Source of the DNA: a bacterium
GTDB taxonomy: Bacteria; JAMCPX01
Assembly (NCBI GenBank): GCA_049966275.1
Contig: JBMFUY010000001.1
Span: 4,780 to 68,779 of the forward strand
Reading direction: 5' to 3'
Length of the DNA: 64,000 bases
Shown here in pieces: positions 7,751 through 60,512 of this stretch. The first letter of the stretch is position 1; each line of letters starts with the position of its first letter. The position numbers and the translations under genes are program-made. The notes beneath the pieces were generated by a model. The model saw nothing but the letters and a program-made list of their open reading frames with translations. It was not told the origin of the DNA and did no database searches.

Positions 7751-7753
7751 AAC

Positions 7754-9459: not shown

Positions 9460-9522
9460 GAACTACCCCCCTTTTTAAAATAAAAAGATAAGAGTTATTG
9501 TGAATTTATAAAGGAAAAAGAT

Positions 9523-11823: not shown

Positions 11824-11836
11824 TTAACTTCTCTTT

Positions 11837-12944: not shown

Positions 12945-13213
12945 TTAACCCGAAAAATGCAATAGGAAAGTTTGCTCATTCGTTCGGGGTACCCATCCAA
13001 AGGATGGGTCGTGCGATCCACCTAAGATACAAAGACTTTTTGCTGTAAAGGAGGTTTAAGTCCTTTGTATGTTTATATGCAATCACATTCCGTTTCTTTT
13101 TTTCTAATATTCGAAGAATACCTATATTTGACGCGTGACCCTTCCCTTCGGGTGGGTACCCCATCACTCATTACACAAACTTCCCTATTTCGCAAATGCA
13201 TTTTTCGGGTTAA
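12945..13213 (+). mobile_element. MITE-like element, long (269-bp) form, copy 1
   Basis: Termini TTAACCCGAAAAATGCA...TGCATTTTTCGGGTTAA (17-bp terminal inverted repeats), flanked by TTAA. Near-identical copies at 28485..28710 and 44321..44589; the 100-bp core is shared with 37706..37808 and 60411..60512. Confidence 0.8.
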
Positions 13214-27610: not shown

Positions 27611-28567
27611 ATGATACAAACCAAACATGTTGAGAATGTACATCTACCACATGGCCTTAAAAAACATATTAGTTTAAGTGGGGAGGTGCACAGAACAAAG
27701 GTAGTTCTGCGGGCAAACAGGATCCACACAGTGTGTGAATCAGCCCGTTGTCCCAATATCAGCGAATGCTTTGGTATGCATCGCGCAACATTTATGATCA
27801 TGGGAGATATATGTACAAGGGCATGCAGGTTCTGTTCTATTGATAAAGGGCATCCAGCAAAGATTGATCCTGAGGAGCCTTACAGAATAGCTAAGAGTGT
27901 TGCTGAGCTTGGCATAATGCATGCTGTTATAACATCTGTTACCAGAGATGATCTTAATGATGGTGGTGCAGACCACTTTTATAGAACAGTGTGCGTTGTT
28001 AAAGAACTTAATCCAGATGTCACTGTAGAGCTGCTAACCCCGGACTTTAAGGGTAACAGGGACGCGATTATGCATCTACTTGAGGCTGATTTTGAGATAT
28101 TTAATCACAATGTGGAGACTGTACCACGCCTATACAGGGGAATAAGGCCCCAGGCTTTGTATGAACGTTCCATTGAAGTGCTTGGTTTTGTAAAACGTCA
28201 GAAGCGCATCATCATTAAGTCAGGATTAATGGTTGGGCTTGGAGAAACCATGGAAGAGGTAAAGGCTGTACTCAGGGATTTAAAGGAAGTGGGATGTGAT
28301 ATTGTTACCATAGGTCAGTATCTTATGCCAACATCACAGAATATACCGGTTCAGGCATATATAACTCAAGAATTGTATGATGAGTACGAGAGATTCGGTA
28401 GAGAAATTGGCATCCCATTTGTTTATGCCGGTCCTTTTATCAGAAGTTCATACCATGCGCAGGAGATTATGAATAAATTAGTCATTAACCCGAAAAATGC
28501 AATAGGGAAGTTTGCTCATTCGTTCAACCCTGCGATCCACCTAAGATACAAAGACTTTTTGCTGTAA
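27611..28567 (+). CDS. lipA: Lipoyl synthase; the last ~28 codons and the stop are supplied by an inserted MITE
   Basis: Radical-SAM CxxxCxxC (CTRACRFC) plus N-terminal Cys cluster (CESARCPNISEC) and SSYHA motif. The ORF runs into repeat copy 28485..28710 (…MNKLV|INPKNAIGKFAHSFNPAIHLRYKDFLL*). Confidence 0.9.
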   Translation: MIQTKHVENVHLPHGLKKHISLSGEVHRTKVVLRANRIHTVCESARCPNISECFGMHRATFMIMGDICTRACRFCSIDKGHPAKIDPEEPYRIAKSVAELGIMHAVITSVTRDDLNDGGADHFYRTVCVVKELNPDVTVELLTPDFKGNRDAIMHLLEADFEIFNHNVETVPRLYRGIRPQALYERSIEVLGFVKRQKRIIIKSGLMVGLGETMEEVKAVLRDLKEVGCDIVTIGQYLMPTSQNIPVQAYITQELYDEYERFGREIGIPFVYAGPFIRSSYHAQEIMNKLVINPKNAIGKFAHSFNPAIHLRYKDFLL

Positions 28568-28710
28568 AGGAGGCTTAAGTCCTTTGTATGTTTATATGCA
28601 ATCACATTCCGTTTCTTTTTTTCTAATATTCGAAGAATACCTATATTTGACGCGGGGTTATCACTCATTACACAAACTTCCCTATTTCGCAAACGCATTT
28701 TTCGGGTTAA
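28485..28710 (+). mobile_element. MITE-like element, 226-bp form (long form with two internal deletions), copy 2, inserted in the 3' end of lipA
   Basis: Same TTAACCCGAAAAATGCA / TGCATTTTTCGGGTTAA termini, flanked by TTAA. Removing the element and one TTAA restores an in-frame lipA ending …KLVINPQRA*. Confidence 0.8.
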
Positions 28711-36269: not shown

Positions 36270-37676
36270 CTACTTACCTATGCAAAATTCAGAGAAGATC
36301 TTATCCAGAATATCCTGAGATGTTATCTCGCCTGTTAATTCCCCTAATTCAGCAATTGCACCATCAACCTCCTCTGCTATGATCTCTGGAAAAGCCTGTT
36401 GATCAATAAGCTCCATAGCCTTGCGTAAAGAAACTTCTATGCGTTCAAGAGCCTGCTTATGTCTATACCTGTTTATCACAGGTGTATTTTCAATAGAGGG
36501 TATGCGTTGGGGTTCTGTAATACCCTGTTTTAAATACTCAATCCCTTCCTGTGTTTTTGCGGATACATGGAATACAGAAAAGGCTTTAAACATGGTCTTT
36601 GCACGTTCTAAATCAGATGAAGATGCTATATCTATCTTATTTATCGCTATAATCACACGCTCCCTGTATTTATCAGCCAGTGACAACTCACTATCAAAAT
36701 CTTCTCCTGTGGTTGGATCAACAACAATAACAATCATATCTGTTTTATCAATGAGACTTTTTGTCATCTCTATGCCAATCTTTTCTATAGGTTCATCACT
36801 GCTCCTTATACCAGCAGTATCTGCAAACACAAGTTTTATGCCTTTATATTCTATGGCTTCTTCTATATAGTCTCTTGTTGTACCTGGATGAGGTGTTACA
36901 ATAGCCCTGTTTTCACCTATAATTGCATTGAACAGGCTTGATTTCCCAACATTGGGCTTACCCACCAATGCAATATGGATCCCATCCTTTATGATCTTTG
37001 CATGATCATAGGTTTTTAATACATGGATGACCTCATCATGGGTTGCCTGAAGTATAAGCTTCAAATCATCCCATTGTTTTGGTGACACATCGTCTTCCGG
37101 GAAATCTATCATGACCTCTATATGTGTTTTTACCTCTATGAGTTTTTCCCTTATTGAACCAACAAATCGTGACAATAGCCCTGTAATCTGATTGATCGCC
37201 TGCTTTCGTGCAATGTCAGTATCTGCCTTTACAAGGTCCAGCACAGCCTCTGCCTGAAGCAGGTCCATCTTGCCGTTTAAGAATGCCCGTCTTGTAAACT
37301 CTCCTCTTTCTGCCAATCTTGCACCTGCTTTTATTACCCTCTGTAAAACAGCGTGCACAGTATTTGAGCCTCCATGCGTGTATATCTCAAGCATATCCTC
37401 ACCTGTGTATGTTTTATCTGCCTTCATAAAAGCTATCATGACCTGATCTATGATGTTATTTGACTCATCTATAATAGCTCCATAGTATAGCCTGTGGCTT
37501 TGATACTGGTGCCTGGGTTTTGCTGGTAAAAAAACATCTCTCAGGATTCTATACACATGATTACCACTCAACCTTACAATACCTATCGCGCCCTCTCCTG
37601 GAGGTGTACTAATAGCTGCTATGGTATCATTGTCATTTTTTAGATCCTTTTTCATATTCTCTGTATCTCTGAACAA
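36270..37676 (-). CDS. mnmE: tRNA modification GTPase MnmE
   Basis: 468 aa; G-domain GKPNVGKSSLFNAI, DTAGIR, C-terminal CIGK motif. The true start may be a few codons inside. Confidence 0.92.
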   Translation of the reverse strand: MFRDTENMKKDLKNDNDTIAAISTPPGEGAIGIVRLSGNHVYRILRDVFLPAKPRHQYQSHRLYYGAIIDESNNIIDQVMIAFMKADKTYTGEDMLEIYTHGGSNTVHAVLQRVIKAGARLAERGEFTRRAFLNGKMDLLQAEAVLDLVKADTDIARKQAINQITGLLSRFVGSIREKLIEVKTHIEVMIDFPEDDVSPKQWDDLKLILQATHDEVIHVLKTYDHAKIIKDGIHIALVGKPNVGKSSLFNAIIGENRAIVTPHPGTTRDYIEEAIEYKGIKLVFADTAGIRSSDEPIEKIGIEMTKSLIDKTDMIVIVVDPTTGEDFDSELSLADKYRERVIIAINKIDIASSSDLERAKTMFKAFSVFHVSAKTQEGIEYLKQGITEPQRIPSIENTPVINRYRHKQALERIEVSLRKAMELIDQQAFPEIIAEEVDGAIAELGELTGEITSQDILDKIFSEFCIGK

Positions 37677-37705: not shown

Positions 37706-37808
37706 TTAACCCGAAAAATGCAATAGGAAAGTTTGCTCATTCGTTCGGGGTACCCCATCACTCATTACACAAACTTCCCTATTTCGCAAATGCATTTTTT
37801 TGGGTTAA
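37706..37808 (+). mobile_element. MITE-like element, short (103-bp) near-palindromic core form, copy 3
   Basis: TTAACCCGAAAAATGCAATAGGAAAGTTTGCTCATTCGTTCGGGGTACCCCATCACTCATTACACAAACTTCCCTATTTCGCAAATGCATTTTTTTGGGTTAA; the two halves are imperfect inverted repeats. Confidence 0.8.
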
Positions 37809-37871
37809 TATAGAATTTACACACTATCATACCTGTGTCAACAGCAATACAATGGTTGCTATGTAGGGGGT

Positions 37872-39341
37872 TTATGGGTATGAGGCAAGCGCGAGTTGCC
37901 AGTGGGTTCCATCAAAGTACGAAAAATAAAGGAATATGTTATTTAAAATGAACATAGGTGATTGCACCCCATTGCTATACGTAAGTTTTGGATTTGAATA
38001 AGATTTAAGCCAGGTTACACCATCAGTGGATGTTGCGTAATTTATAGTAAAATTGCCTGAAGAGTTGATACCAGTATAGTACATTTTGTAAACCTTCTGG
38101 TCTTTTGAAACAGTTGATTGATATGCTCCATCAGCATCAGTGCCGGTTCCTGACACATCAAGTATCACTGCCTCAACCCCATTTTTTGTGTACTTTGCCC
38201 AGTTTATACCATCGGATGATGTTGCATATCCAATGCGCCAGGTTGTACCATCGTATCCTGAGAACCACATCTTGTATATGCCATTATCCTTTATAACGCA
38301 TGGGAAGGCAACCCCTAAATAATCCCATGTGCCTGTTGTACCGGTGTTTAATACAGGTGTACTGTTTACTGTCCAGGTGATCCCATTTGCAGAGCTGGCA
38401 TATCCGATACGTATAAAGTGTCCATCGTATCCTGTAAACCATACCTTGAACATGCCATTATCATACATAAAACTTGAACCGGAAATATCCGTAGCATAAA
38501 ATGTAGTTGGACTTATACTTAAAACAGGGTTACCCGCATACTTTGTCCATGTTTTAGCATCCTGTGATGTTGCAAGTCCTATATTCCATGTGGAGCCGTT
38601 ATTACCGGAGTATAGCATATAAAATGTACCTTTTACATTTATCACAGAAGGGAAAGCCACGCCAGTATTGTCCCAGCCAGAGCCTGAAATACTCAGGATC
38701 GGTGAATTGTTAATCCGCCATGGAATAGAAAGTACATTTATGCCAACGGATGAAGTTGCCTGCGGTGCGGTTGCATCTGAAAACGTTATGCTTGCAGGTC
38801 CTTCCCTATTTAACCATGCACTGAATGTAGCAGTACCATTGGAAAAGTTTGATATGGATGTGGGTGTAATATCGCCCCAGCTTGAGTGTAATAAGAGTGT
38901 TCCACTGTATGTTTGAAGTATTGCATTATCAAGCATTGCAGATACTGTTATAGAAAATGGCTGATCCTCAATTGTTGTAAAAGGTGTTGATGCAGAGAAG
39001 GAGGTTGCGAGTAAATGAAGTACCATGGGCAATGCCTTGACAGTTTGTCCTGCAATAACAGTAATATGCTGAGAACTTGATGCATATCCGGCTCTGGTGG
39101 CATTAAGTGTATAAGTGCCCGCGGGTATACCGGTTAATATATAATTTCCCTGTGTATCTGTGTAAGCTATAATAGAGGTACCACTTACATAAACGAGTAT
39201 ATTTTGAGGGGATGTCTGGTCGTTTAATATAACAGTGCCTGATATACTTCCGGTAGAAGGATTGGTTGAAGAACCACCACATCCAGCCTGGATGATGGTT
39301 AATAATAAGAATGCAAAAGCTAAAACCAGGTATTGCCTCAT
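37872..39341 (-). CDS. Secreted protein: N-terminal carboxypeptidase-regulatory/Ig-like domain plus five-bladed beta-propeller glycoside-hydrolase-like domain (GH43/GH32/GH130 superfamily-like)
   Basis: Signal peptide. Repeated blades of the type W(D/N)..GVAFP.VI…Y(K)M(W/Y)(F/Y)(S/T)G(Y)DG..W(R)IG(Y/L)ATS.DG..W. Confidence 0.6.
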   Translation of the reverse strand: MRQYLVLAFAFLLLTIIQAGCGGSSTNPSTGSISGTVILNDQTSPQNILVYVSGTSIIAYTDTQGNYILTGIPAGTYTLNATRAGYASSSQHITVIAGQTVKALPMVLHLLATSFSASTPFTTIEDQPFSITVSAMLDNAILQTYSGTLLLHSSWGDITPTSISNFSNGTATFSAWLNREGPASITFSDATAPQATSSVGINVLSIPWRINNSPILSISGSGWDNTGVAFPSVINVKGTFYMLYSGNNGSTWNIGLATSQDAKTWTKYAGNPVLSISPTTFYATDISGSSFMYDNGMFKVWFTGYDGHFIRIGYASSANGITWTVNSTPVLNTGTTGTWDYLGVAFPCVIKDNGIYKMWFSGYDGTTWRIGYATSSDGINWAKYTKNGVEAVILDVSGTGTDADGAYQSTVSKDQKVYKMYYTGINSSGNFTINYATSTDGVTWLKSYSNPKLTYSNGVQSPMFILNNIFLYFSYFDGTHWQLALASYP

Positions 39342-39345
39342 CCTT

Positions 39346-40452
39346 TTAAAACCTCCTGTAAACTGCGTACTTTAACGCCCTGTTTCTATAATCTCTGTAA
39401 CTAACATGCGCATTGTTATTGTCATCAAGCTTTAGAGAAGAGTATAAACCTACAATGCCTTCACCATCTATAATGTCAATGTTAAAACCAACGCCGTTGT
39501 ACCATGCGTACTTAAGATCACCATTCACCCCGTCAAAGTATGTTATATGAGGGTAACCATATGTATCAAGTGCAATTGATGTGTCTGTTCCAACTCCATA
39601 ATCCGGATCAGCAATATTTATATCCCATTGCTTAAGGTTTGCATCATACCATGCACATTTCAATTGTTCGTTTGTAGCATCGTAATAGCTTATAAATGGT
39701 GTGCCATCTTCTCTAATAGCGAGTGATGCATACCTGCCGGCATCATCACCACTTCCACCATCAACAGTGGTTATTGACCATCCAGAACCTGTAAAATGTG
39801 CATATTTTAACGCACCATTGGATGCATCATAATACGCAATGGCAGGGTTATCAGATGGATCGAGCGCAAGAGAACTGTATAATCCCACCTCACCTAAAAA
39901 GTCTACTGTGGTAATGTTAAAGCCTGTGCTTGTGCCTGTGGCAAGCTTTAAATTGCCATTTGTAAAATCGTAATAACTTATAATGGGCTCATCATTCTTG
40001 TTTATTGCAAGAGAAGCAAAACCACCTACATTTGCGTATGAGTTATCAACAACTGTAATATTGAATCCAGTGTTTGTTTCTTTCGCAAGTTTTAAATGCC
40101 CATTGGTATTGTCATAATAGGCAATGACCGGGTTACCGTTTCTATCAAGTGCAAGGGAAGAGAACATACCAACATTATTCCCATTTCCACCATCAACCTT
40201 TGTAATAACCCATGCATTGTTTGCAGTGGACCAATGTGCAAGTAGTAAACTTCCGTGTGTAACATCATAGTAAGAGATGTATGGATTACCCGAGCTATCA
40301 AGCGCAAGAGAGGTATATTCGCCAACATCTGCACTCTTATCTACAAAACTTGTTGCAAACAAATTCTGTGTTTGTTTTAACCCTGATATATCTTTACCAC
40401 ATCCGGTAATCATAAGTATTGCTGTAATAAACAACATCAATCTTTTCATCAC
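39346..40452 (-). CDS. Lipoprotein with seven tandem ~45-aa beta-propeller-type repeats
   Basis: Lipobox ILMITGCG; seven repeats (Y/F)(S/A)SLA(L/I)D..GNP.I(S/A)YYD.TNG.LK(L/Y)A. Confidence 0.6.
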   Translation of the reverse strand: MMKRLMLFITAILMITGCGKDISGLKQTQNLFATSFVDKSADVGEYTSLALDSSGNPYISYYDVTHGSLLLAHWSTANNAWVITKVDGGNGNNVGMFSSLALDRNGNPVIAYYDNTNGHLKLAKETNTGFNITVVDNSYANVGGFASLAINKNDEPIISYYDFTNGNLKLATGTSTGFNITTVDFLGEVGLYSSLALDPSDNPAIAYYDASNGALKYAHFTGSGWSITTVDGGSGDDAGRYASLAIREDGTPFISYYDATNEQLKCAWYDANLKQWDINIADPDYGVGTDTSIALDTYGYPHITYFDGVNGDLKYAWYNGVGFNIDIIDGEGIVGLYSSLKLDDNNNAHVSYRDYRNRALKYAVYRRF

Positions 40453-41906
40453 TGCCCCTTTATGATCTTGAATTCAACCCTTCTGTTTTTAGCTCTGCCT
40501 GCTGGAGTGTTGTTGGAAGCAATAGGGAATTCTTCACCAAAACCAATTGCTGTAAGCCTGTCAGATGATATGCCATGCTGGATCAAATAATCCATAACTG
40601 ATTCAGCCCTTTTCTGTGATAAGGTTTTGTTGTATGCAGGTGAACCTATATTGTCTGTATAACCCTCTATCCTGACATGGATTTCAGGATTGTATTTAAG
40701 CAAGGTTACAACATCATCAAGTATAGGATATGACGCAGGCACAATAACAGCGCTACCTAATTTGAAATGTATTGCACGGGTTATTTCTATCTTCATACCA
40801 AGCTTATTGATATACGCATACCTGAGATGCGTTTTGTAAAATGGAGCTGGTTTTGGCGATGGAGGAGGCGGTGGTGGGGCCTGGGTCTGAGCCTGCTGGT
40901 TTAATGTGGGGTGTTGTACAGGAGCAGGTGCTGGAGCTGCTGTTGCTGGCTTTACCATTGTGTATTCCCTTACAACTGTAGGTTTGCAGGAAATGATCTT
41001 ATATCCTATTTCAACATATACACTCCATGGTACATACGGATACGCAGTTGTGGTTGAGATATCTGAGAGGCTTTTTTCTAAACCAATATCAAAACCTGCA
41101 AGCGCATATATCCTGTTGGGAAAGATCAATTTAATACCTGGTGTAATATAGAATGGATTTTGCATGAACGATGGATTTCCGAGTGATGGTAGGCTTGCTT
41201 TGTAATAGCTATATTGTGAAGCTTGCTCAGTGTATACTTCAATAAATGGATGCAGAAGATTGTTTAAAGCAACGCCTTCCAATGACAGATCCCCTATAAG
41301 CCTATTGTCCCCCCTTACCCCAAGTCCATAAAGCCCTGTTATATTGTACTCGTATGGGTTATCCAGTAGATTTATGGAGTTATCTAAGTAATAACCAAGG
41401 TTTAGATGAAATATTAATGGTGTAAACCTTGAAACATCCGTTAGGTTAAAAGAAAAAAGTAACAATCCAAGATAGCTTGTTGCAGATGTATTAAAGCCTA
41501 AACCACTTGCAGAGGATAGCAATCTTGGTTGAACAAGCGCGCCTAAACTAAACCATTTTTTCAGATCATAACCGTACTTAACCGTTAGCCATATATCTCC
41601 ATTATCATGGTATGCTGTGCTGTTTAAAACAAACGTGTTCTGATAAAGGGTTATGCCAAGGTCCAGACCTTTAACAATGGAGGCATAACCAAAATCAAGG
41701 TGCCCATTCAAATTTTGATAGGTGTTAGAAGCTCCGAGTAGATTTGAGGTATTAGCATAGCCAAGCCCTGCAGATTCGTAAAATCCGGATTGTGATACTG
41801 ATGCTGATGTTGCATGTTCAAGCCCTGATTGTCCGATCAGATCTGCATGCGCATTAACCGAATATAGAAACAAAGATATTATCCAGCACAAAATTATCTT
41901 TCTCAT
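40449..41906 (-). CDS. Outer-membrane OmpA-family protein: N-terminal beta-barrel-like domain, Pro-rich linker, C-terminal OmpA peptidoglycan-binding domain
   Basis: Likely start at the internal Met (MRKIILCWIISLFLYSVNAHA signal peptide; the track ORF runs to 42008). Linker PAPAPVQHPTLNQQAQTQAPPPPPPSPKPAP. OmpA motif …EGYTDNIGSPAYNKTLSQKRAESV…RRVEFKI. Confidence 0.7.
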   Translation of the reverse strand: MRKIILCWIISLFLYSVNAHADLIGQSGLEHATSASVSQSGFYESAGLGYANTSNLLGASNTYQNLNGHLDFGYASIVKGLDLGITLYQNTFVLNSTAYHDNGDIWLTVKYGYDLKKWFSLGALVQPRLLSSASGLGFNTSATSYLGLLLFSFNLTDVSRFTPLIFHLNLGYYLDNSINLLDNPYEYNITGLYGLGVRGDNRLIGDLSLEGVALNNLLHPFIEVYTEQASQYSYYKASLPSLGNPSFMQNPFYITPGIKLIFPNRIYALAGFDIGLEKSLSDISTTTAYPYVPWSVYVEIGYKIISCKPTVVREYTMVKPATAAPAPAPVQHPTLNQQAQTQAPPPPPPSPKPAPFYKTHLRYAYINKLGMKIEITRAIHFKLGSAVIVPASYPILDDVVTLLKYNPEIHVRIEGYTDNIGSPAYNKTLSQKRAESVMDYLIQHGISSDRLTAIGFGEEFPIASNNTPAGRAKNRRVEFKIIKGQ

Positions 41907-41919
41907 CTGTTTTTTTCTC

Positions 41920-44238
41920 TTAATCTTCTGTTTTCTCTTTTCTGGTACACAGATATAGAAACAACAAAACAATAAACAATGACAATACAAAGTTAAACAT
42001 TGAACCATTTGTTGTATTGAAAGGTACTGTCCCGCATCCGCCTGTTACACTTGCAGTAACCGTATAATTTATTCCTACAACAGATGAGGTGTTGCCTGCT
42101 TCATCAATAGCCTTTACATAAAGGGTATGATTGCCCACAGGACTGTTCCCAACATCAATGGTATACTCACCAGGCTCAAGTGTAGTAAAAGATGTTTGAT
42201 TGTCAATTGCGTACATCAACCTTGCCTGGGTTACTGCATCTGTAACATTGAATGTAAAATATGGATAATCTGCCTTTGATAAGGTTAATTCCGGGGGCAC
42301 TGTATCCACAGTGAATACAGTTGTATCACCTGTAACTGTTAAGCCTGTTTGCGCATCCCTTATTCTGACCTGAAGTGAATGTTCTCCATCCATCAGGTTA
42401 TCAAGTCTTATCGTTGTATCTGTTGACCATAGTGACCATCCCTGCCATACAGGACCCAAAACAGATTGATCAGAGATTCTCCAGGATATTTCTGCATGCT
42501 CTGGTAAAGCTGTGTTAAGTTTAAACACAACACCTGATCGCGTATTGATAATAGGTTTCATACCATCATTAAGTGACATGATGCTTAATGACCCGGTTGA
42601 AGGGTTGTTGTATGATAGAAATCCAATATGAGGCATTGAGAGGGTGGATAGATTGAGCAGGTTCATAAATCCTGTGACATTAAGGTATACGTTTAGATAA
42701 CCGCCTGATGGCACAATATCCTTTACAAGTACTGTTACGCCACTGAATGTAAATGCAGAACTTATGGTAGGTAAGGCTGTGCCAATAAAGCTTGTTGCAA
42801 GGCTCAAGCCCATCTGGATCACGCTGTTAACATTGGATGGTTTTGTAAGTTCAGAGGCAAGTATAACATCATTTATTTTTATGCCACCCGGGGTACTATC
42901 TATCGCAACAACTATCATTGGATTCCCATTTTGATCAAGTTTGTTTTGATCAAGGTAGACCTCTGCTTTTATAGAAACATTGGCACTTAATACAAAGGCA
43001 TCTGTATACTGTGTGTTGTAGGCTGCACTTGCATCAGGATATGTTTGAGCCTCATCAACCCCTAATAACCCTTCAATAATGATGCCATTGAGCGTTACAG
43101 TATCCCACATATTCTGTGGTGAACCAAGTGTTAGCACCGGTGGCTGTGTAGGTATGATCTTTAAAACGAGTGTTCCGGTACTTGGCAGTTCAGGGATTAA
43201 ACCTTTTAATAACCCAACTGGAAGTGGCGGTGTGGTTATGCACATCATACCGCTTAAGTAAACAGCATACAATGCTTGATTGATCAGATCCTGTGACACA
43301 CCAAAACCAAGCATCACATCTGTTCTGGCTGTGTCAATGGTTGGAGCTGATATGGTTGGTGTAGGTGGAGAGGCTATTGGTAATGGCAGGCATGGCGCGG
43401 GCTCTGTTGCAGGTCCAACCCCTCCATCAAGACTTATATCAGCTGCATTGTTTGTAATATTCAAAGCCTGGTAAAATAAAGATGGCCTGATTTGATATGA
43501 AACAGGTGGATATGTTCCATGAAGATATAGATTGATATTGATACTGCTCAACATCTGGTTTATTTGAGGGATCAGCATAGAATTTATGGCTGAATTAATA
43601 GCGGATGTTATAGAACTCTGTATAAGCGACCATATCGCATCCCATGCCCCTTGGGGAATAGTAATGCCACATACTGTTGGAGGGGATGGCTCTGGTATTG
43701 GTTGTACATTCACACTTGGTGTTCCCACAAGTTTTAACCGTAAATAATGCCCATCTATATAAGGCTCTACGTTTATATTGGCTGATGCATCAGCATTTAG
43801 ATTTGATATGCTAAACCCGCATGTGGTACATAGCCCCAAAGCTACTGCATGCACAACCCCATTAACCTGATTGATATATGCGTGTATATCATTCACAACC
43901 AATGAAATGCTTTGCGTTGCACCGTTCCATGCAAGATTTAGGTTTGGTTGATTGTTGTATTGTCCTGGAATAGTTATCTGAACATTAAATGGATAGATAC
44001 CATAACTAAAGCCAGAAAACCCCCCTGGACAACCAGGGTCAGGTATGCCTGAAAACGGATAGTTCACAGTTAATCCTGTAAAATTCTGAGAGATATAGTT
44101 TAATAGTGCCTGGTATGCGACAATATTGACTGCATTCGGTTCCCACAAAGGTGGTGTTTGTGTATCCGCAACCCCCTTACCACACAAGGAAAAGCTTATT
44201 AAAAATAATCCTATAAAAAGGATAAATAACCTTTTCAT
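41920..44238 (-). CDS. Large secreted cell-surface protein with Ig-like C-terminal domains and a C-terminal sorting-signal-like tail
   Basis: 772 aa; signal peptide MKRLFILFIGLFLISFSLC. C-terminus …TASVTGGCGTVPFNTTNGSMFNFVLSLFIVLLFLYLCTRKEKTED has Gly/Cys motif, TM helix and basic cluster; Big-like VDTVPPELTL. Confidence 0.6.
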   Translation of the reverse strand: MKRLFILFIGLFLISFSLCGKGVADTQTPPLWEPNAVNIVAYQALLNYISQNFTGLTVNYPFSGIPDPGCPGGFSGFSYGIYPFNVQITIPGQYNNQPNLNLAWNGATQSISLVVNDIHAYINQVNGVVHAVALGLCTTCGFSISNLNADASANINVEPYIDGHYLRLKLVGTPSVNVQPIPEPSPPTVCGITIPQGAWDAIWSLIQSSITSAINSAINSMLIPQINQMLSSININLYLHGTYPPVSYQIRPSLFYQALNITNNAADISLDGGVGPATEPAPCLPLPIASPPTPTISAPTIDTARTDVMLGFGVSQDLINQALYAVYLSGMMCITTPPLPVGLLKGLIPELPSTGTLVLKIIPTQPPVLTLGSPQNMWDTVTLNGIIIEGLLGVDEAQTYPDASAAYNTQYTDAFVLSANVSIKAEVYLDQNKLDQNGNPMIVVAIDSTPGGIKINDVILASELTKPSNVNSVIQMGLSLATSFIGTALPTISSAFTFSGVTVLVKDIVPSGGYLNVYLNVTGFMNLLNLSTLSMPHIGFLSYNNPSTGSLSIMSLNDGMKPIINTRSGVVFKLNTALPEHAEISWRISDQSVLGPVWQGWSLWSTDTTIRLDNLMDGEHSLQVRIRDAQTGLTVTGDTTVFTVDTVPPELTLSKADYPYFTFNVTDAVTQARLMYAIDNQTSFTTLEPGEYTIDVGNSPVGNHTLYVKAIDEAGNTSSVVGINYTVTASVTGGCGTVPFNTTNGSMFNFVLSLFIVLLFLYLCTRKEKTED

Positions 44239-44320
44239 TATTTAAGGCTTAACCCATGATATTCAAAAAGTCAAGCGCACGCATCGAGTCTTGTCTTTTA
44301 AACTTGAAAAGTGCACTTCT

Positions 44321-44589
44321 TTAACCCCCAAAAAATGTAATGAGGAAATTTCTTTATTCACCCGGGGTACCCATGCAGAGCATGGATCGTGCGATCCAAT
44401 CGATAGCTATATGTTTCCTTATAGAAACGAGGTTTTAGTCCTTTGTATGTTTATATGCAATCACATTCCGTTCTTTTTTTCTAATATTCGAAGAATACCT
44501 ATATTTGACGCGTGACCCTTCCCTTCGGGTGGATACCCCATCACTCATTACACAAACTTCCCTATTTCGCAAATGCATTTTGGGGTTAA
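44321..44589 (+). mobile_element. MITE-like element, long (269-bp) form, copy 4, with a degenerate left terminus
   Basis: TTAACCCCCAAAAAATG…GCAAATGCATTTTGGGGTTAA; the internal ~170-bp module is shared with copies 1 and 2. The terminal TTAA supplies the stop codon of the adjacent minus-strand gene. Confidence 0.75.
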
Positions 44590-45248
44590 TGTTTGCCTGC
44601 CTCATTTACCCATTTCTGGATCGCATTGGTGTATACAAGTGCTGATGATGTTGAGATCGCTGTGTTGAGTATGGGTTGTTTTTCAAGCATGTATCTAATC
44701 AAGAAACTAAGTGAGCTTATATCAGTGTATACCCTGTAGAAACCAATGGTCTTTTTGCCATTATCTACAGGCAGGAATTTCCATGATCCTTCTACAGTTT
44801 TAAGATTACCAGCAACCCTTGTCCATGTAATACTGTCCGGAGGATTTAAAACATGTTTCAGTGTATAGTTTGCGTGTTCGGATAGAATAGAGAATTTAAA
44901 CTCAACTTTATAGTCTACGATCAGTACATTACCATTTTTCTGGACGACCTTTACACTTGTGGTTTGTGGTATATGCTTTGCATAATCATTGTAGTCTGAG
45001 ACTATAGAAAAAACCTCGTTTATGGGCGCATTGAACAATGTTATAACAGTAACAAACTGAGGCTTTCCAGGCACTTCTTTATCAATAGATACGAGCTGTT
45101 CATCCTTCAGAATACTTCCAAACAGGTTGGGCGATGTTAATGCCAGCTGCTCAAGGGCTGACATTTGCTGGGCATTTGTTATTCCCGGGAGCAATAAAAG
45201 AAATGTGATTGTTAAAATCACGTAAGCCATTTTGTGTTTGATAAGCAT
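44586..45248 (-). CDS. Secreted hypothetical protein, possibly SRPBCC/START-like fold
   Basis: 220 aa with signal peptide (MAYVILTITFLLLLPGITNA). The fold assignment is weak. Confidence 0.45.
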   Translation of the reverse strand: MLIKHKMAYVILTITFLLLLPGITNAQQMSALEQLALTSPNLFGSILKDEQLVSIDKEVPGKPQFVTVITLFNAPINEVFSIVSDYNDYAKHIPQTTSVKVVQKNGNVLIVDYKVEFKFSILSEHANYTLKHVLNPPDSITWTRVAGNLKTVEGSWKFLPVDNGKKTIGFYRVYTDISSLSFLIRYMLEKQPILNTAISTSSALVYTNAIQKWVNEAGKH

Positions 45249-48669: not shown

Positions 48670-48796
48670 ATAACCCTCCTTTCAGAAACAGACTATACAG
48701 AAATTAAATGCTCATTGCAAGCATTTTGATTATTCAATCAATTGATGTGGGTCTATTATCTTGAAAACTTTTAAATGTATGCTTTTATAGATCATT

Positions 48797-50991: not shown

Positions 50992-51821
50992 CAATGCCTA
51001 AAAAACAAAACTCTGTTATACAGATGACAATCGATAGGTTTATTGCAGACACGTGTTTATCACATGCTGCTGCACTATCTTTTTATACCATATTGTCTAT
51101 CATTCCTCTATTGTTTGTCCTTGTTTCTGTTGGTAGCTATATTGTTGGCTCCACGCATAACTTTTTTCTGTATATAACATCCATTCTAAAACAGTTTATA
51201 CCAGATGTATCAAATGCTGTTATAAATGATGTGGGAAATTTATTAAAAAAACGCAGCACCATAGGAATCGTTGGATTTATATTTCTCTTATTTTCATCTG
51301 ATCTTGCACTGCTTGAAGCAAAACGTTCACTTGATGTGATCTTCAGACTTGAGAAACGTAAAAACCCTTTGTTTATAAAAGGGAAATCCATGCTTGTGAT
51401 CCTTGTAAGCGGTGTATTCATATCATTCTTATTTGTTATTACGCCTTTATTTAAGATCCTGATAAAATTGGACCTATCGTATATAAGTACACCGCTTTAT
51501 ATTCTGGCACGTATTCTATCAAGTCGCGTATTTGCTTTTTTTATGATCTTCTCTTTATTCACATCTGCTTATTACTTCTTACCTTCTAAAAAGATCGGAG
51601 GTAAATATGCTTTTCTGGCAGGAGGGATAACATCCGTACTGTGGACAATTGTAAGGGTATTATTCTCATGGTATATCAAAAACCATTCTAAAATAAATAT
51701 AGTTTATGGTTCTATCGCTGCAATCATTATTGCTATTGTATGGGTCTATTATACATCGCTTATCTTTCTATTTTCTGCTGAATTAGTCTCAAGCATTAAG
51801 GAAAAAATGGAGCTGCATTGA
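50988..51821 (+). CDS. YihY/BrkB family inner membrane protein
   Basis: 277 aa polytopic membrane protein with the YihY signature region (…LSHAAALSFYTILSIIPLLFV…). Confidence 0.8.
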   Translation: MTMPKKQNSVIQMTIDRFIADTCLSHAAALSFYTILSIIPLLFVLVSVGSYIVGSTHNFFLYITSILKQFIPDVSNAVINDVGNLLKKRSTIGIVGFIFLLFSSDLALLEAKRSLDVIFRLEKRKNPLFIKGKSMLVILVSGVFISFLFVITPLFKILIKLDLSYISTPLYILARILSSRVFAFFMIFSLFTSAYYFLPSKKIGGKYAFLAGGITSVLWTIVRVLFSWYIKNHSKINIVYGSIAAIIIAIVWVYYTSLIFLFSAELVSSIKEKMELH

Positions 51822-53286
51822 AGAAGCCATTAAGAGTACCCATTAACCTTAAATACATGCTTCCGGTGGTATTACTTACGATTGTAATAATATCTATTTA
51901 TACTTTATTCATAAGACTCAGCACAGAAAGCGTTTTCAGACAATATCTTGAGGATGAGATAAGGCTGATAATAAACGATGTAAACAAGACAATTACCATT
52001 CATATGCTAAAGGGACAGGGTAAGGACTTTAGTTTTTATCTTTCAAGTCTCTACAATTATGAGATAAAAGATATAATTGCAATAGGCATACTCTCTCCAA
52101 ATGGTAAACCCTTATACCTGTATTCTAAAGACAACATAAAGGGAATAGAAATACCACAGTTAAAAAGCTATCTTAACATGGTAATGATAAAACATCGCAA
52201 CAACATAGAGGTGTTTTATCCTATTAACAATGAGAAGATATGCTATAGGTGTCATGGTTCCGGGAAAACATTGCTTGGGCTGTTATATATAAATACATCA
52301 ACTCAAAGATACAATAAGGCATTTGCAGGGCTTATGGCAAACTGGTTTACCATGAGTGTGGTTATAACTTCGATACTGATATTTTCAATATGGCTCATTA
52401 AACCATTGTTATAGAAAGACCTGTGGAAGAGCTTGTAAATACACTGAAAAGAGCATCAGAGGGTGATCTCTCTGCCAGATCAGGCTTTAAAGAAAACGAT
52501 GAATTGGGTTTTTTAAGTGAACAACTCAATAAAATGCTGGATAGGCTTGCATACAGGGAAGCAGAGTACAAAAGGCTTGCAGAACTACAGCTTCAACAGA
52601 TGGACAAACTTGCATCTCTTGGAGAGATATCCCTGTCTCTTGCACACGAGATAAGGAATCCATTGGCTGGTATAAGCGGTGTTTTACAGGTGTTCAAAGA
52701 TGACTTTGTTACTGACCAGGAGCGATCCGCTATTTTCACACAACTTATGGCTCAGATAAATAAAATAGATAGGCTTGTCGGGGATATGTTAAAATTTGCA
52801 AAATTCCCTTCGCACGGCATCTCAACCTTTAACATAAATGAGAGCATAAAAACATTAAAACAATTGCTTTCCCCTCAAGCTTCAACCAATCATGTAACCG
52901 TTACATTAGACCTTGATGACAGTATGCCGGATATTGCAGAGGATAGAGATGCATTTGAGCAGGCGATCCTCAATCTTATGCTCAATGCAATACAGGCAAT
53001 GCCCGATGGAGGTGTACTGAATGTCACAACAGAATTTACAGATAAGTTTGGAGAACCGTATATCTTAATAAAAGTCAGTGATACAGGTAAAGGTATACCT
53101 CAGGATATAAAAGATAGGATCTTTGATCCATTTTTCACAACAAAACGAGATGGTACAGGGCTTGGACTCGCAATAAGCCTGAATGCTATAAGGACAATGA
53201 ATGGCAGCATAACCTTTGAATCTGAAGAAGGAAGAGGCACCACGTTTTTTTTACGGGTGCCTTACAGAAGTGCTGGAAAAAGATAA
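51818..53286 (+). pseudogene. Sensor histidine kinase (periplasmic sensor–TM–HAMP–HisKA–HATPase) interrupted by a -1 frameshift at ~52410
   Basis: ORF 51818..52414 carries TM1–sensor–TM2 and ends …IWLIKPLL*. ORF 52423..53286 in another frame carries HAMP (…ASEGDLSARS…), H-box (SLAHEIRNPLAGI) and the HATPase G-boxes. One missing base in 'ttata' would fuse them. Confidence 0.65.
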
Positions 53287-59343: not shown

Positions 59344-60414
59344 ATGAATTATTTAGATTTTTACAAACTGAAAGAAGAACCCTTCTCAAGTGCACCGGAT
59401 ATTAAGTTTTATTATAACAGTGCTCAACACTCAAAAGCACTTGTAAGGTTGATGTACGCAATTGATTCAATGAAAGGTCTTGCACTATTAATAGGTGATA
59501 TTGGAACCGGAAAAACCACGCTTGCAAGACGCATGCTTGATAGCCTGCCTGAAGAAGAATATGAATCAGCATTACTTGTTATTATCCATTCCGGAATCAC
59601 AGCTGACTGGCTTCTCAAAAAGATAGCAATGCAGCTTGGTATTGCTGAGCCTTCTGAAAACAAGATCACACTCTTATCACAACTGTATGAGCGATTGAAT
59701 GAATTGTATGAACAGCATAAAAAGGCAGTGGTCTTAATAGATGAAGCGCAGATGTTAAAAACAAAAGAGATGATGGAGGAATTTAGAGGGTTATTGAATT
59801 TAGAAGCCCCTGATAGAAAGTTGATCACCTTTGTGTTTTTTGGTTTACCAGAGATAGAAGAAAATTTACTGCTTGATAGTCCACTTGCCCAGCGGGTAGC
59901 ACTTAAATATAGATTGGAATCTTTAAACTATGAGTCCACAGAGGCTTACATAAAACACAGATTAGGGCTCGCGGGGAACAAGGATGAAATATTCACACCT
60001 GATGCTATTGAGAAGATCCATAAGTATTCAAAAGGCATACCAAGGATGATCAATATCATATCCTCAAATGCCTTATTTGAAGGGTTTCTTGTTAAGGCTA
60101 AGGTTATAGATGGTAAGATTATAGATAGTGTTGCTGCAGATTTAGGCGTAACAGGAGAACAGATAGAAAAAAGAGAAGCGCAGGTGAATGAAGAGATCAA
60201 AGAACAACCCATTGTTGAACCTACCAGACAGGTTACGCAGGAGCCTGTTAATGAAAGGGTAAAACAAACACAGGCAAAAGCATCAACAATACCATCCCCT
60301 CCACCAAAATCTGAGGTGACAGCTCCAAAACCTCCTGAAACAAAGCCAAAACAACAGAAACAGGAAGAGGATGAAATTGATTCTATCCTTGATAAGCTTG
60401 AAAAAGGCGGTTAA
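59344..60414 (+). CDS. ExeA/GspA/MshM-like AAA ATPase
   Basis: 356 aa; Walker A GDIGTGKTTLARRM, Walker B VVLIDEAQ; Pro/Lys-rich C-terminal tail. The TAA stop lies inside the TTAA terminus of the adjacent MITE. Confidence 0.75.
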   Translation: MNYLDFYKLKEEPFSSAPDIKFYYNSAQHSKALVRLMYAIDSMKGLALLIGDIGTGKTTLARRMLDSLPEEEYESALLVIIHSGITADWLLKKIAMQLGIAEPSENKITLLSQLYERLNELYEQHKKAVVLIDEAQMLKTKEMMEEFRGLLNLEAPDRKLITFVFFGLPEIEENLLLDSPLAQRVALKYRLESLNYESTEAYIKHRLGLAGNKDEIFTPDAIEKIHKYSKGIPRMINIISSNALFEGFLVKAKVIDGKIIDSVAADLGVTGEQIEKREAQVNEEIKEQPIVEPTRQVTQEPVNERVKQTQAKASTIPSPPPKSEVTAPKPPETKPKQQKQEEDEIDSILDKLEKGG

Positions 60415-60512
60415 CCCCAAAAATGCGTTTGCGAAATAGGGAAGTTTGTGTAATGAGTGATGGGGTACCTCGAACGAATGAGCAAACTTTCCTATTGCAT
60501 TTTTTGGGTTAA
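60411..60512 (-). mobile_element. MITE-like element, short (102-bp) core form, copy 5, inverted orientation
   Basis: Reverse complement matches copy 3 almost base for base; TTAACCCCAAAAATGC…GCATTTTTTGGGTTAA. Confidence 0.8.

What the first reader, a model, noticed from the sequence alone, without database searches (positions are those of the whole stretch)
37706..44589. Two same-orientation MITEs bracket a 6.5-kb cell-surface cassette
Copies 3 and 4 are in direct orientation and flank exactly four co-directional genes, all encoding exported proteins:
- a GH43/32/130-like five-bladed beta-propeller with a carboxypeptidase-regulatory/Ig-like domain;
- a seven-repeat beta-propeller lipoprotein;
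- an outer-membrane OmpA-family protein;
- a 772-aa surface protein with a C-terminal sorting-signal-like tail.

Housekeeping genes lie on both sides (mnmE, and the DUF35/thiolase cluster). This layout resembles MITE-flanked composite units that a transposase can mobilise in trans. The module could be a strain-variable unit for envelope, adhesion or polysaccharide interaction. It is not a described system.
Basis: partly seen in the sequence, partly recalled or inferred. Interest (0 to 1): 0.62.

Follow-up and report, generated by a model that had tools for sequence, protein, structure and literature searches.

The report
Native envelope operon between IS1380-type MITEs
Two copies of a small, recently active mobile repeat (a MITE derived from IS1380-family insertion sequences) do flank a four-gene cell-envelope operon, but that operon is a native, vertically inherited gene cluster that relatives carry without the repeats, so the "mobile cassette" reading is not supported and the layout is largely ordinary.

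Summary
Repeat copies c3 (37706-37808) and c4 (44321-44589) lie in the same orientation and enclose four co-directional genes for exported proteins.

The repeats are genuine MITEs:
- They are foldback elements with TTAA flanks, and the window holds five copies.
- Two near-identical strains carry an extra copy at a TTAA site that is empty in the window.
- The termini match a full-length IS1380-family element.

The composite-transposon interpretation fails its own test:
- Six other species or strains (71-84% protein identity) carry the same four genes in the same order, with the same conserved promoter box and no flanking MITE pair.
- Five of those loci place the operon between rlmL and M48-clpB.
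- Three strains ~99.8% identical to the window keep it at the same site.
- No mnmE|SRPBCC "empty site" exists in any relative.
- GC, GC3 and codon usage match the rest of the window.
- With MITEs in 5 of 23 usable spacers, bracketing an operon is unremarkable. Copies c2 and c3 likewise bracket nine housekeeping genes.

All three synteny breakpoints visible against the sister clade carry a MITE. The repeats may therefore have promoted rearrangement by recombination, or they may simply share a preference for inter-operon spacers.

Side lead: the 772-aa protein looks like a tandem BPI/LBP-like (TULIP) lipid-binding protein with an uncatalogued C-terminal sorting motif.

The parts
37706..37808 (+). 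MITE copy c3: short form, 103 nt including both TTAA. It lies between the last operon gene and mnmE.
   Evidence: Its arms are 100% identical to those of c1. The RNA hairpin is -39.9 kcal/mol (z -7.3) on the minus, co-transcribed strand.
44321..44589 (+). MITE copy c4: long form, 269 nt, with a diverged left arm. It belongs to the older subfamily B, shared with L030 and L032. It lies upstream of the operon promoter.
   Evidence: Its right-end TTAA (44586-44589) contains the stop codon of the SRPBCC gene.
41920..44238 (-). Operon gene 1: 772-aa exported protein. It has a signal peptide, a tandem BPI/LBP-like (TULIP-like) region, two Ig/FN3-like domains, an invariant SGGCGTVPF motif, a TM helix and a basic tail.
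40449..41906 (-). Operon gene 2: OmpA-family protein. It has a signal peptide, an N-terminal domain of about 330 aa with no family match, a Pro-rich linker and a peptidoglycan-binding OmpA domain. The likely start is the ATG at 41906, not 42008.
   Evidence: Orthologues are 487-510 aa.
39346..40452 (-). Operon gene 3: 368-aa lipoprotein with seven repeats of the type (Y/F)xSLALDxxGNPxI(S/A)YYD. It is probably a 7-bladed beta-propeller and is the most conserved gene of the four (85-90% identity).
37872..39341 (-). Operon gene 4: 489-aa lipoprotein with a CarboxypepD_reg Ig-like domain and a GH130/GH43-like five-bladed propeller domain.
44269..44274 (-). Conserved TTGACT box, a putative -35 element of the operon's own promoter. 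It lies 30 nt upstream of the start codon and downstream of c4.
   Evidence: The box TTGAC(T/A)TTT is invariant in all six aligned loci. Promoter function is inferred.
12945..13213 (+). MITE copy c1: long form, subfamily A. It lies next to M48-clpB-ABC, the block that directly abuts the operon in the sister clade.
28485..28710 (+). MITE copy c2: long-form variant lacking the central GGGGTACCC hairpins. It overlaps the 3' end of a lipA-like ORF.
60411..60512 (-). MITE copy c5: short form, inverted, in a plus-strand transcription unit.
52228..52231 (.). Empty TTAA target site inside a histidine-kinase gene. It is occupied by a c2-like MITE in strains L002 and L003.
36270..37655 (-). mnmE, the housekeeping neighbour. 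Its 5' flank differs in every relative examined.
44586..45248 (-). SRPBCC protein with a signal peptide, the neighbour on the other side. It is the last gene of a conserved block running from radA to SRPBCC.

Best explanation
The four genes form a native, vertically inherited envelope operon with its own promoter. The operon is conserved as a unit across a narrow uncultured bacterial lineage. In this species it sits between two independently inserted copies of an abundant, recently active MITE, which is non-autonomous and derived from an IS1380-family element.

How the MITE behaves
- It inserts at TTAA sites, which often overlap TAA stop codons in inter-operon spacers.
- It shows an orientation bias relative to transcription.

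Consequences
- Two adjacent copies in the same orientation around one operon are expected by-products of MITE density. They are not the ends of a composite transposon.
- The MITEs coincide with the borders of synteny blocks. Either both are tolerated only between operons, or the repeats additionally serve as substrates for homologous recombination. The second option is inferred, not shown.

Function of the operon (inferred): an outer-membrane/periplasmic complex made of four parts.
- An OmpA-type peptidoglycan-anchored outer-membrane protein.
- Two propeller lipoproteins, one of them glycan-binding or GH130-like.
- A large BPI/LBP-like lipid-binding protein held by a C-terminal sorting signal or anchor.
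For: MITE nature
- Five copies with conserved inverted termini, TTAA flanks and a hairpin fold.
- A filled-versus-empty TTAA site between strains about 99.7-99.9% identical.
- The same termini bound many 138-265-nt elements in unrelated metagenome contigs.
- They also bound a 1623-bp element, L106:208-1830. It encodes a 459-aa IS1380-family transposase (NF033539 at 203.8 bits against a cutoff of 180; PF13701) and is flanked by TTAA.

The operon is native
- The same four genes occur in the same order in L028 (84/82/90/79% identity) and in L029/L030 (71/73/85/71%). L032, L033 and L034 show the same gene order and domain content.
- None of these loci has a flanking MITE pair.
- Five of these loci share rlmL | operon | (optional TonB cluster) | M48-clpB-ABC.
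- A TTGACT box upstream of gene 1 is conserved in all six loci.
- Divergence is similar to the flanking housekeeping genes: ClpB 89%, M48 85%, thiolases 89-97%, era 83%, der 73%.
- GC is 0.386-0.407 against 0.379 +/- 0.028 for the rest of the window. GC3 is 0.30-0.335 against 0.331 +/- 0.036. Codon-usage distance is within range.
- The site is the same in three near-identical MAGs.

Bracketing is unremarkable
- MITEs occupy 5 of 23 spacers of at least 40 nt.
- c2 and c3 bracket nine housekeeping genes.
- The block between c1 and c3 is pure housekeeping with no transposase.
Against: - The operon's neighbours in this genome differ from those in the sister clade on both sides, and every junction carries a MITE: M48|c1, mnmE|c3|GH130 and 772|c4|SRPBCC. 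That is 3 of 3 breakpoints. If MITEs were placed at random among 23 spacers this would have a probability of roughly 0.01, so pure coincidence is not comfortable.
- TIR remnants sit at the same GH130-side junction in L029 and L034.
- The outer ends of c3 and c4 are intact inverted termini, so transposase-mediated mobilisation of the whole unit is mechanistically possible.
- The polarity of the rearrangement is unresolved. The rlmL|operon|M48 order spans only one of two sister clades, and the outgroups lack the operon.
- Only parts of the relatives' genomes could be read.
Confidence: 0.72

Rival explanations
1. Recombination-driven relocation. MITE copies served as portable homology for RecA-dependent recombination. 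A segment between direct copies excised as a circle and re-integrated at another copy, or successive inversions occurred. This split an ancestral rlmL|operon|M48-clpB arrangement and left the operon, or the 24.5-kb block between c1 and c3, in a new place with MITEs at the junctions. On this view the MITEs cause the layout, but no transposase acts on the unit.
For: - All three breakpoints against the sister-clade order carry a MITE.
- c1 and c3 are direct repeats whose arms are 100% identical. They bound exactly the 24.5 kb that separates M48 from the GH130-like gene.
- L029 and L030 have identical 786-aa proteins but differ by a 4.4-kb TonB-ExbBD-receptor indel at the same junction, where L029 has a TIR-only palindrome.
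- MITEs are documented recombination hotspots. Correia elements lie at gonococcal rearrangement sites (PMC3454330), and a review (PMC10969869) covers the general case.
Against: - The non-coding flanks are too diverged to show that the right flank of c3 and the left flank of c1 were once contiguous.
- Polarity is unresolved.
- L028 has a third, different upstream context without any MITE in its 117-nt spacer, so rearrangements in this lineage also happen without MITEs.
- At least two events are needed under any scenario.
Confidence: 0.2
2. c3 and c4 act as the two ends of a composite transposon, and an IS1380-family transposase supplied in trans moved the 6.9-kb unit into an mnmE|SRPBCC spacer.
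For: - The outer termini of c3 (left) and c4 (right) are intact and correctly inverted.
- The family is active, so a transposase must exist or have recently existed in the genome.
- MITE-flanked units that move are known, for example the Acinetobacter integron-flanking MITEs (PMC10969869).
Against: - No empty mnmE|SRPBCC site exists in any relative.
- Relatives carry the operon without MITE pairs.
- c3 and c4 belong to different forms and subfamilies: short against long-B with a diverged left arm.
- There is no presence/absence polymorphism among strains.
- The cargo is compositionally native.
- The obligatory TTAA flank makes the target-site duplication uninformative.
Confidence: 0.05
3. The cassette is a horizontally acquired genomic island, with the MITEs as hitch-hikers or integration scars.
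For: - SNP density between near-identical strains is several-fold higher in 40-46 kb than in the flanks. This could reflect recombinational import.
Against: - GC, GC3 and codon usage are native.
- The gene family is restricted to this lineage: only 10 homologues in 5.8 billion clusters, and 2-3 clusters in 1.84 billion representatives.
- Divergence parallels the housekeeping genes.
- There is no integrase, tRNA or transposase nearby.
- The elevated SNP density is equally expected for surface proteins under diversifying selection.
Confidence: 0.03

Closest known systems
IS1380-family insertion sequences and their non-autonomous derivatives
   Same: - The 16-20 terminal nucleotides are identical to those of a full-length element encoding an IS1380-family transposase. 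That element is L106:208-1830.
- The TTAA flanks are consistent with a 4-bp duplication.
- The CCC...GGG tips with a TTAA target are the signature of the related eukaryotic piggyBac superfamily. IS1380 transposases are used as the prokaryotic outgroup of piggyBac in PMC10813416. That piggyBac has this signature is my own knowledge.
   Different: - The elements have no transposase, are 103-269 nt long and have a foldback structure.
- The long form carries a ~170-nt internal module closed by its own inverted repeat.
- The matching autonomous element was found in an unrelated, GC-rich metagenome contig, not in this genome.
Correia repeat-enclosed elements (CREE) of Neisseria
   Same: - Both are abundant intergenic MITEs of about 100-270 nt with short and long forms that insert at a T/A-rich palindromic target.
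- Both are transcribed as hairpins with flanking genes.
- Both are found at synteny breakpoints (PMC3454330, PMC10969869).
   Different: - The termini are different and the parent family is different. The Correia target is TA (own knowledge), whereas here it is TTAA with an IS1380-type parent.
- No promoter or RNase III role was tested here.
MITE-flanked mobilisable units, such as the Acinetobacter class 1 integrons flanked by identical MITEs
   Same: Two same-family MITE copies bracket a gene set, and the outer inverted termini are intact.
   Different: - In those cases identical MITEs surround accessory resistance cargo found in different contexts (PMC10969869).
- Here the two copies are of different forms.
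- The cargo is a lineage-conserved native operon, and relatives carry it without the MITEs.
BPI/LBP/Der p 7 (TULIP) lipid-binding proteins
   Same: - Foldseek's top hits for the 772-aa model are BPI 1bp1 (E 4e-10) and LBP 4m4d (E 4e-8), over ~550 columns.
   Different: - There is no sequence-level family match.
- The model confidence is modest: pLDDT 59.8 overall, and 75-85 only for residues 45-230.
- The protein has extra Ig domains and a C-terminal motif-TM-basic tail.
- It is bacterial and encoded in an operon with OmpA-type and lipoprotein partners.

Membership tests
MITE (non-autonomous TIR transposable element) | Terminal inverted repeats, small size and no coding capacity | tested here: met
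   The elements are 103-269 nt. The inverted termini extend to about 45 nt imperfectly. No ORF is conserved between copies.
MITE (non-autonomous TIR transposable element) | Multiple dispersed copies and evidence of transposition (a filled against an empty target site) | tested here: met
   There are five copies in 64 kb and further copies in L004, L029/30, L032 and L082. A TTAA site at 52228-52231 is empty in the window and L001 and filled in L002 and L003.
MITE (non-autonomous TIR transposable element) | An autonomous element with the same termini | tested here: met
   L106:208-1830 has the same 16-20-nt termini and TTAA flanks and encodes a 459-aa transposase. It was found in another organism. 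A partner in this genome could not be searched for.
IS1380 family (as parent of the MITE) | The transposase of the matching full-length element scores above the curated family cutoff | tested here: met
   NF033539 transpos_IS1380 scores 203.8 bits against a cutoff of 180. PF13701 scores 91.9 bits against a cutoff of 34.7.
IS1380 family (as parent of the MITE) | A 4-5-bp target-site duplication | tested here: inconclusive
   TTAA lies on both sides of every copy, with a single TTAA at the empty site. A 4-bp TTAA duplication and a 2-bp TA duplication within TTAA give identical sequences.
Composite transposon built from two MITEs | Two copies with intact, correctly inverted outer termini | tested here: met
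   The left end of c3 and the right end of c4 are intact.
Composite transposon built from two MITEs | The unit is absent from an otherwise identical site in relatives, or present with the same ends at another locus | tested here: not met
   No relative shows an mnmE|SRPBCC junction. Three near-identical strains have the unit at the same site. No second copy occurs in the window or the loci.
Composite transposon built from two MITEs | The cargo travels with the flanking elements | tested here: not met
   Six relatives carry the intact operon without a flanking MITE pair.
Composite transposon built from two MITEs | The cargo is accessory or compositionally foreign | tested here: not met
   GC, GC3 and codon usage lie within the window's distribution. 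Divergence parallels the housekeeping genes.
OmpA family (gene 40449-41906) | A C-terminal OmpA peptidoglycan-binding domain above the curated cutoff | tested here: met
   PF00691 scores 85.9 bits against a cutoff of 27.2. No specific NCBIfam equivalog reaches its cutoff.
GH130 glycoside phosphorylase/hydrolase (gene 37872-39341) | A domain match above the Pfam cutoff | tested here: met
   PF04041 scores 62.5 bits against a cutoff of 26, but only in two partial stretches. The NCBIfam equivalogs fall far below their cutoffs (58 bits against 450).
GH130 glycoside phosphorylase/hydrolase (gene 37872-39341) | Catalytic and phosphate-binding residues are conserved | not tested
   No structure-based alignment to a characterised GH130 enzyme was made.
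BPI/LBP (TULIP) superfamily (gene 41920-44238) | The characteristic fold: a helix packed against a long curved beta-sheet, in tandem | tested here: inconclusive
BPI/LBP (TULIP) superfamily (gene 41920-44238) | Sequence-profile membership | tested here: not met
   There is no Pfam, NCBIfam or PDB sequence match in the N-terminal 600 residues.
C-terminal sorting signals of the exosortase/rhombosortase/MYXO-CTERM type | A tripartite tail: a conserved motif, a TM helix and a basic cluster | tested here: met
   SGGCGTVPF is invariant in all 10 homologues and is followed by a hydrophobic helix. A basic (Lys/Arg) cluster follows in 9 of the 10; in P0009 only a single Arg follows the helix.
C-terminal sorting signals of the exosortase/rhombosortase/MYXO-CTERM type | A match to a curated sorting-signal model, or a cognate processing enzyme nearby | tested here: not met
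   No NCBIfam model hits the tail even at E <= 10. No sortase-like gene turned up among the window ORFs that were scanned, but not all ORFs were scanned.

The most novel reading that the evidence does not exclude
The four-gene operon is an undescribed, lineage-restricted envelope system. It is built around a bacterial tandem BPI/LBP-like (TULIP) lipid-binding protein that carries a new "GGCGTVPF-CTERM" sorting signal. This protein works with an OmpA-type outer-membrane anchor and two propeller lipoproteins to bind or shuttle lipid or glycolipid at the outer membrane. Separately, the IS1380-derived MITEs act as portable homology that reshuffles such core operons between species.
Probability: 0.25. 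Interest if true: 0.55.

Novelty: new member of a known kind. Interest (0 to 1): 0.3.

Why it matters
The main result is a useful negative. A layout that looks like a MITE-bounded mobile cassette turns out to be a native operon in a MITE-dense genome, so it should not be catalogued as a mobile or strain-variable element.

Three modest positives remain:
- It documents an active, TTAA-targeting MITE family whose termini tie it to IS1380-type (piggyBac-related) transposases. The same termini occur in many unrelated environmental bacteria.
- It gives a small natural data set in which MITE positions coincide with synteny-block borders. This bears on how small repeats shape gene order in uncultured lineages.
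- It flags a conserved envelope operon whose largest protein may be a bacterial BPI/LBP-like lipid binder with an uncatalogued sorting tail. That protein would be a reasonable target for structural or biochemical follow-up.

Tried and rejected
- Exact-protein look-ups failed for mnmE (with the TTG start) and for the 772-aa protein. The thiolase look-up worked.
- The genome-contig scan with mnmE gave only one useful relative, L004. The other 23 loci were mnmE homologues at or below 40% identity from unrelated phyla.
- I tried to rebuild the ancestral GH130|M48 spacer from the right flank of c3 plus the left flank of c1. The spacers are too diverged, so the test was inconclusive.
- I tried to polarise the gene order with the outgroups P0009 and P0010. 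They carry the 772-like gene alone, so they are uninformative.
- Rfam found nothing on the window at gathering thresholds, nor on c1 at E <= 1. No tRNA genes were found.
- A plasmid-collection search with c1 gave no match.
- The promoter/terminator scan of 37.5-44.8 kb found no more sites than in shuffles. It was used only for the TTGACA-16-TAAATT site at 37841-37814, between the operon and c3.
- A small peptide in the long-form module (MFICNH...) was rejected, because a 1-nt indel in c4 changes the frame.
- The 771-aa gene at the end of L036 was rejected as a cassette homologue.
- The afdb50 fold library was unavailable.
- The weak NCBIfam hit to the anammox S-layer family (33.6 bits against a cutoff of 1400) and the TraB hit (93 bits against 700) were treated as generic Ig and OmpA domain similarity, not as family membership.

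Full report
**1. Observation**

The window contains five copies of one repeat family:

| Copy | Coordinates | Strand | Length and form |
|---|---|---|---|
| c1 | 12945-13213 | + | 269 nt, long |
| c2 | 28485-28710 | + | 226 nt, long variant |
| c3 | 37706-37808 | + | 103 nt, short |
| c4 | 44321-44589 | + | 269 nt, long |
| c5 | 60411-60512 | - | 102 nt, short |

- Every copy begins TTAACCC(G/A)AAAAATGC and ends GCATTTTT(C/G)GGGTTAA.
- The short form is a near-perfect foldback. As RNA, c3 folds at -39.9 kcal/mol on the minus strand, with z = -7.3 and no shuffle folding as well.
- The long forms are the short form plus a ~170-nt module inserted at the central GGGGTACCCC.

Between c3 and c4 lie exactly four minus-strand genes, all with signal or lipoprotein signal peptides:
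- 41920-44238: a 772-aa protein with a Big_13 Ig domain and a C-terminal TM tail.
- 40449-41906: an OmpA-domain protein.
- 39346-40452: a seven-repeat lipoprotein.
- 37872-39341: a lipoprotein with CarboxypepD_reg and GH130-like domains.

One slip: the immediate neighbour beyond c4 is a secreted SRPBCC protein (44586-45248), not the DUF35/thiolase genes.

**2. The repeats are true, active MITEs of IS1380 type**

*Recent transposition.* Contigs L002 and L003 are 99.7-99.9% identical to the window. They start inside a c2-like copy whose right end plus TTAA joins the window sequence at 52228. At that position the window and L001 have a single TTAA inside a histidine-kinase gene. This is a filled-versus-empty site, so single copies have moved very recently and the target is TTAA.

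*Spread within the lineage.* Related copies or remnants occur at other sites in more distant relatives:
- L004 6065-6102;
- L029/L030 5745-5972;
- L032 2156-2380;
- L082 478-593 (with a terminal fragment at 41-66);
- a 30-nt TIR-only palindrome in L029 and a solo end in L034.

*Link to IS1380.*
- I scanned all fetched loci for a second, inverted terminus. Many of the metagenome hits to the 16-mer are themselves 138-265-nt MITEs with the same termini but different interiors.
- L106:208-1830 is a 1623-bp element with these termini and TTAA flanks.
- It encodes a 459-aa protein that passes the curated IS1380-family transposase cutoff (NF033539 at 203.8 bits against 180; PF13701 at 91.9 bits).
- IS1380 transposases are the prokaryotic relatives used to root piggyBac trees (PMC10813416). 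This fits the TTAA/CCC...GGG signature.
- No transposase lies in the window.

**3. The cassette is a conserved native operon**

*Distribution of the 772-aa family.* The protein has only ten homologues among 5.8 billion clusters. Their contexts were fetched.

*Relatives with the full operon.*
- The same four genes, in the same order, occur in six loci:

| Locus | Protein identity to the window (772-aa / OmpA / propeller / GH130-like) |
|---|---|
| L028 | 84 / 82 / 90 / 79% |
| L029 and L030 | 71 / 73 / 85 / 71% |
| L032 | 772-aa protein 76% |
| L033 | 772-aa protein 75% |
| L034 | 772-aa protein 72% |

- The four-protein values come and the single values. For L032-L034 the other three genes were identified by order, length and Pfam domains.
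- None of these loci has a MITE on both sides of the operon.

*Shared layout in five loci.*
- L029, L030, L032, L033 and L034 share rlmL(-) | operon | M48 peptidase-ClpB-ABC.
- L029 and L034 have a TonB-ExbBD-receptor cluster inserted after the GH130-like gene.
- The M48-ClpB-ABC block is window 6230-12685 (68-89% identity). It lies immediately left of c1.
- Relative to that order, the window therefore has 24.5 kb between M48 and the GH130-like gene, bounded by c1 and c3. This block is pure housekeeping: ABC transporter, nadC, valS, lipA, lptFG, dcd, M16 peptidase, cinA, an arfB-like gene, mgsA and mnmE.
- On the other side, c4 takes the place of the rlmL junction.

*Evidence that the operon is native.*
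- An invariant TTGAC(T/A)TTT box lies ~30-40 nt upstream of gene 1 in all six loci. The operon therefore carries its own promoter, downstream of c4.
- GC, GC3 and codon usage of the four genes fall inside the window's distribution.
- Their divergence from relatives matches that of neighbouring housekeeping genes.
- The three near-identical MAG contigs have both MITEs and the operon at the same site.
- Distant homologues of the 772-aa gene (55-58% identity) stand alone, without the three partners.

**4. Test of the composite-transposon idea**

The predicted empty site, with mnmE next to SRPBCC/thiolase, was not found.
- In L004, mnmE is preceded by dnaA-dnaN.
- In L082, mnmE is preceded by jag-yidC.
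- The conserved block from radA to SRPBCC ends after SRPBCC in all lineages. It is followed by acyl-CoA dehydrogenase in L035, which comes from the same sample as L028. It is followed by toxin-antitoxin modules in L036, which comes from the same genome as L004.

Other points against the model:
- c3 and c4 are different forms. c4 belongs to an older subfamily shared with L030 and L032.
- Bracketing is not special. MITEs sit in 5 of 23 spacers of at least 40 nt, and c2-c3 enclose nine co-directional housekeeping genes.
- The shared orientation of c3 and c4 fits a transcription-related bias. In the four informative cases (c3, c4, c5 and the L082 copy), the element is oriented the same way relative to the flanking transcription unit. 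For c3 and c5, the two copies folded, that is the strand with the more stable hairpin: -39.9 against -29.9 kcal/mol for c3 and -39.0 against -28.0 for c5.

**5. What remains open**

- All three differences from the sister-clade order coincide with MITE copies.
- The GH130-side junction also shows TIR remnants and an indel polymorphism in L029/L034 against L030.
- This suggests that MITEs mark rearrangement-prone spacers, and perhaps cause rearrangements by homologous recombination. That role is documented for Correia elements and other MITEs (PMC3454330, PMC10969869).
- I could not prove it. The non-coding flanks are too diverged to reconstitute the ancestral spacer.
- A tree of the 772-aa family puts the window, L028 and P0003 in one clade and all loci with the rlmL|operon|M48 order in the sister clade, so polarity is unresolved.
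- L028 has yet another upstream context with no MITE.

**6. Function of the operon (inferred)**

*The 772-aa protein.*
- The AlphaFold model is modest (pLDDT 59.8; residues 45-230 reach 75-85).
- Foldseek ranks BPI (E 4e-10) and LBP (E 4e-8) first, over ~550 columns.
- This points to a tandem TULIP-like lipid-binding region, followed by two Ig/FN3 domains.
- All ten homologues end with an invariant SGGCGTVPF motif, a short polar spacer and a TM helix. A basic cluster follows in nine of them; P0009 has only a single Arg after the helix. This is a sorting-signal-like architecture.
- No NCBIfam model matches the tail.
- A profile search of 1.84 billion representatives found the N-terminal region in only three clusters.

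*Working model.* Together with an OmpA-type peptidoglycan-anchored protein and two propeller lipoproteins, the most likely role is an outer-membrane/periplasmic complex that binds lipid or glycan.

*Strain diversity.* SNPs between near-identical strains are concentrated in 40-46 kb: 35 of 44 differences against L001, and 38 of 44 counting the 37-kb bin. This fits surface exposure.

**7. Verdict**

The mobile-cassette interpretation is not supported. This is a new member of a known kind: an IS1380-derived MITE family in an uncultured lineage, flanking an ordinary, if functionally uncharacterised, native operon.

Noticed in passing
window 41920-44238 (also P0001-P0010, P0153): The 772-aa protein's model resembles tandem BPI/LBP/Der p 7 (TULIP) lipid-binding domains. 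All ten homologues share an invariant C-terminal SGGCGTVPF motif followed by a TM helix, with a basic cluster after the helix in nine of them. This sorting-signal-like tail matches no curated model. The N-terminal region is found in only about 3 clusters among 1.84 billion representatives.
   Followed up: partly
window 52228-52231; L002 1-74; L003 1-75: A MITE insertion is polymorphic between strains about 99.8% identical. It interrupts a histidine-kinase gene in L002 and L003, while the TTAA site is empty in the window and in L001.
   Followed up: yes
window 51818-53286 and 53341-54686: A HAMP/HisKA histidine kinase and a sigma-54 response regulator are each split into two ORFs in the window (198+287 aa and 242+203 aa). 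Relatives L035 and L036 have single genes of 477-489 aa and 447-449 aa, and L001 has an intact 489-aa kinase. These are possible pseudogenes or sequencing errors.
   Followed up: no
window 28485-28567, 44586-44588, 60412-60414: MITE ends overlap gene ends. The last 83 nt of the lipA-like ORF (27611-28567) lie inside c2. The stop codons of the SRPBCC gene and of the AAA_22 ORF (59344-60414) lie in the terminal TTAA of c4 and c5. This fits insertion at TTAA sites that contain TAA stop codons.
   Followed up: partly
window ~48670-48796: The cumulative GC skew reaches its minimum here and gene orientation switches from minus to plus, between the DUF35 gene and era. This is an origin-like signature, yet the window has no dnaA. 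In relative L004, dnaA-dnaN directly abut mnmE.
   Followed up: no
window 13005-13150, 28525-28665, 44383-44528; L030 5785-5925; L032 2200-2345: The ~170-nt internal module of the long-form MITE is closed by its own inverted repeat (CGCGATCC.../...GACGCG) with some compensatory changes. It contains blocks up to 93% identical across species, for example GAGGTTTTAGTCCTYTGTATGTTTATATGC and TTCGAAGAATACCT. These blocks flank a segment that differs completely between subfamilies A (c1, c2) and B (c4, L030, L032). There is no Rfam match and its role is unknown.
   Followed up: partly
L029 16470-16500 against L030 16437-16679; L034 7889-7905: L029 and L030 have identical 786-aa proteins but differ by a 4.4-kb TonB-ExbD-ExbB-TonB-dependent-receptor indel just after the GH130-like gene. 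L029 has a 30-nt palindrome made only of the two MITE termini at that junction, and L034 has a solo right end.
   Followed up: partly
L037-L156 (for example L041, L043, L044, L075, L077, L088, L092, L133): The same 16-nt terminus bounds many MITEs of 138, 181, 205, 217 and 265 nt in unrelated metagenome contigs. In L044 and L077, two copies lie about 1.6 kb apart. The terminus therefore defines a widespread MITE superfamily that I did not find described in the papers searched.
   Followed up: partly
window 37-46 kb against L001 and L002: SNPs between near-identical strains cluster in the operon, c4 and the SRPBCC gene: 38 of 44 differences against L001 fall in the 37-45 kb bins. The flanking housekeeping genes are almost invariant.
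   Followed up: partly
L031 14609-22346: The distant relative that carries the lone 772-like gene has a type I-C CRISPR-Cas gene set (cas3, cas5d, csd1, cas7, cas4, cas1) about 2 kb downstream.
   Followed up: no
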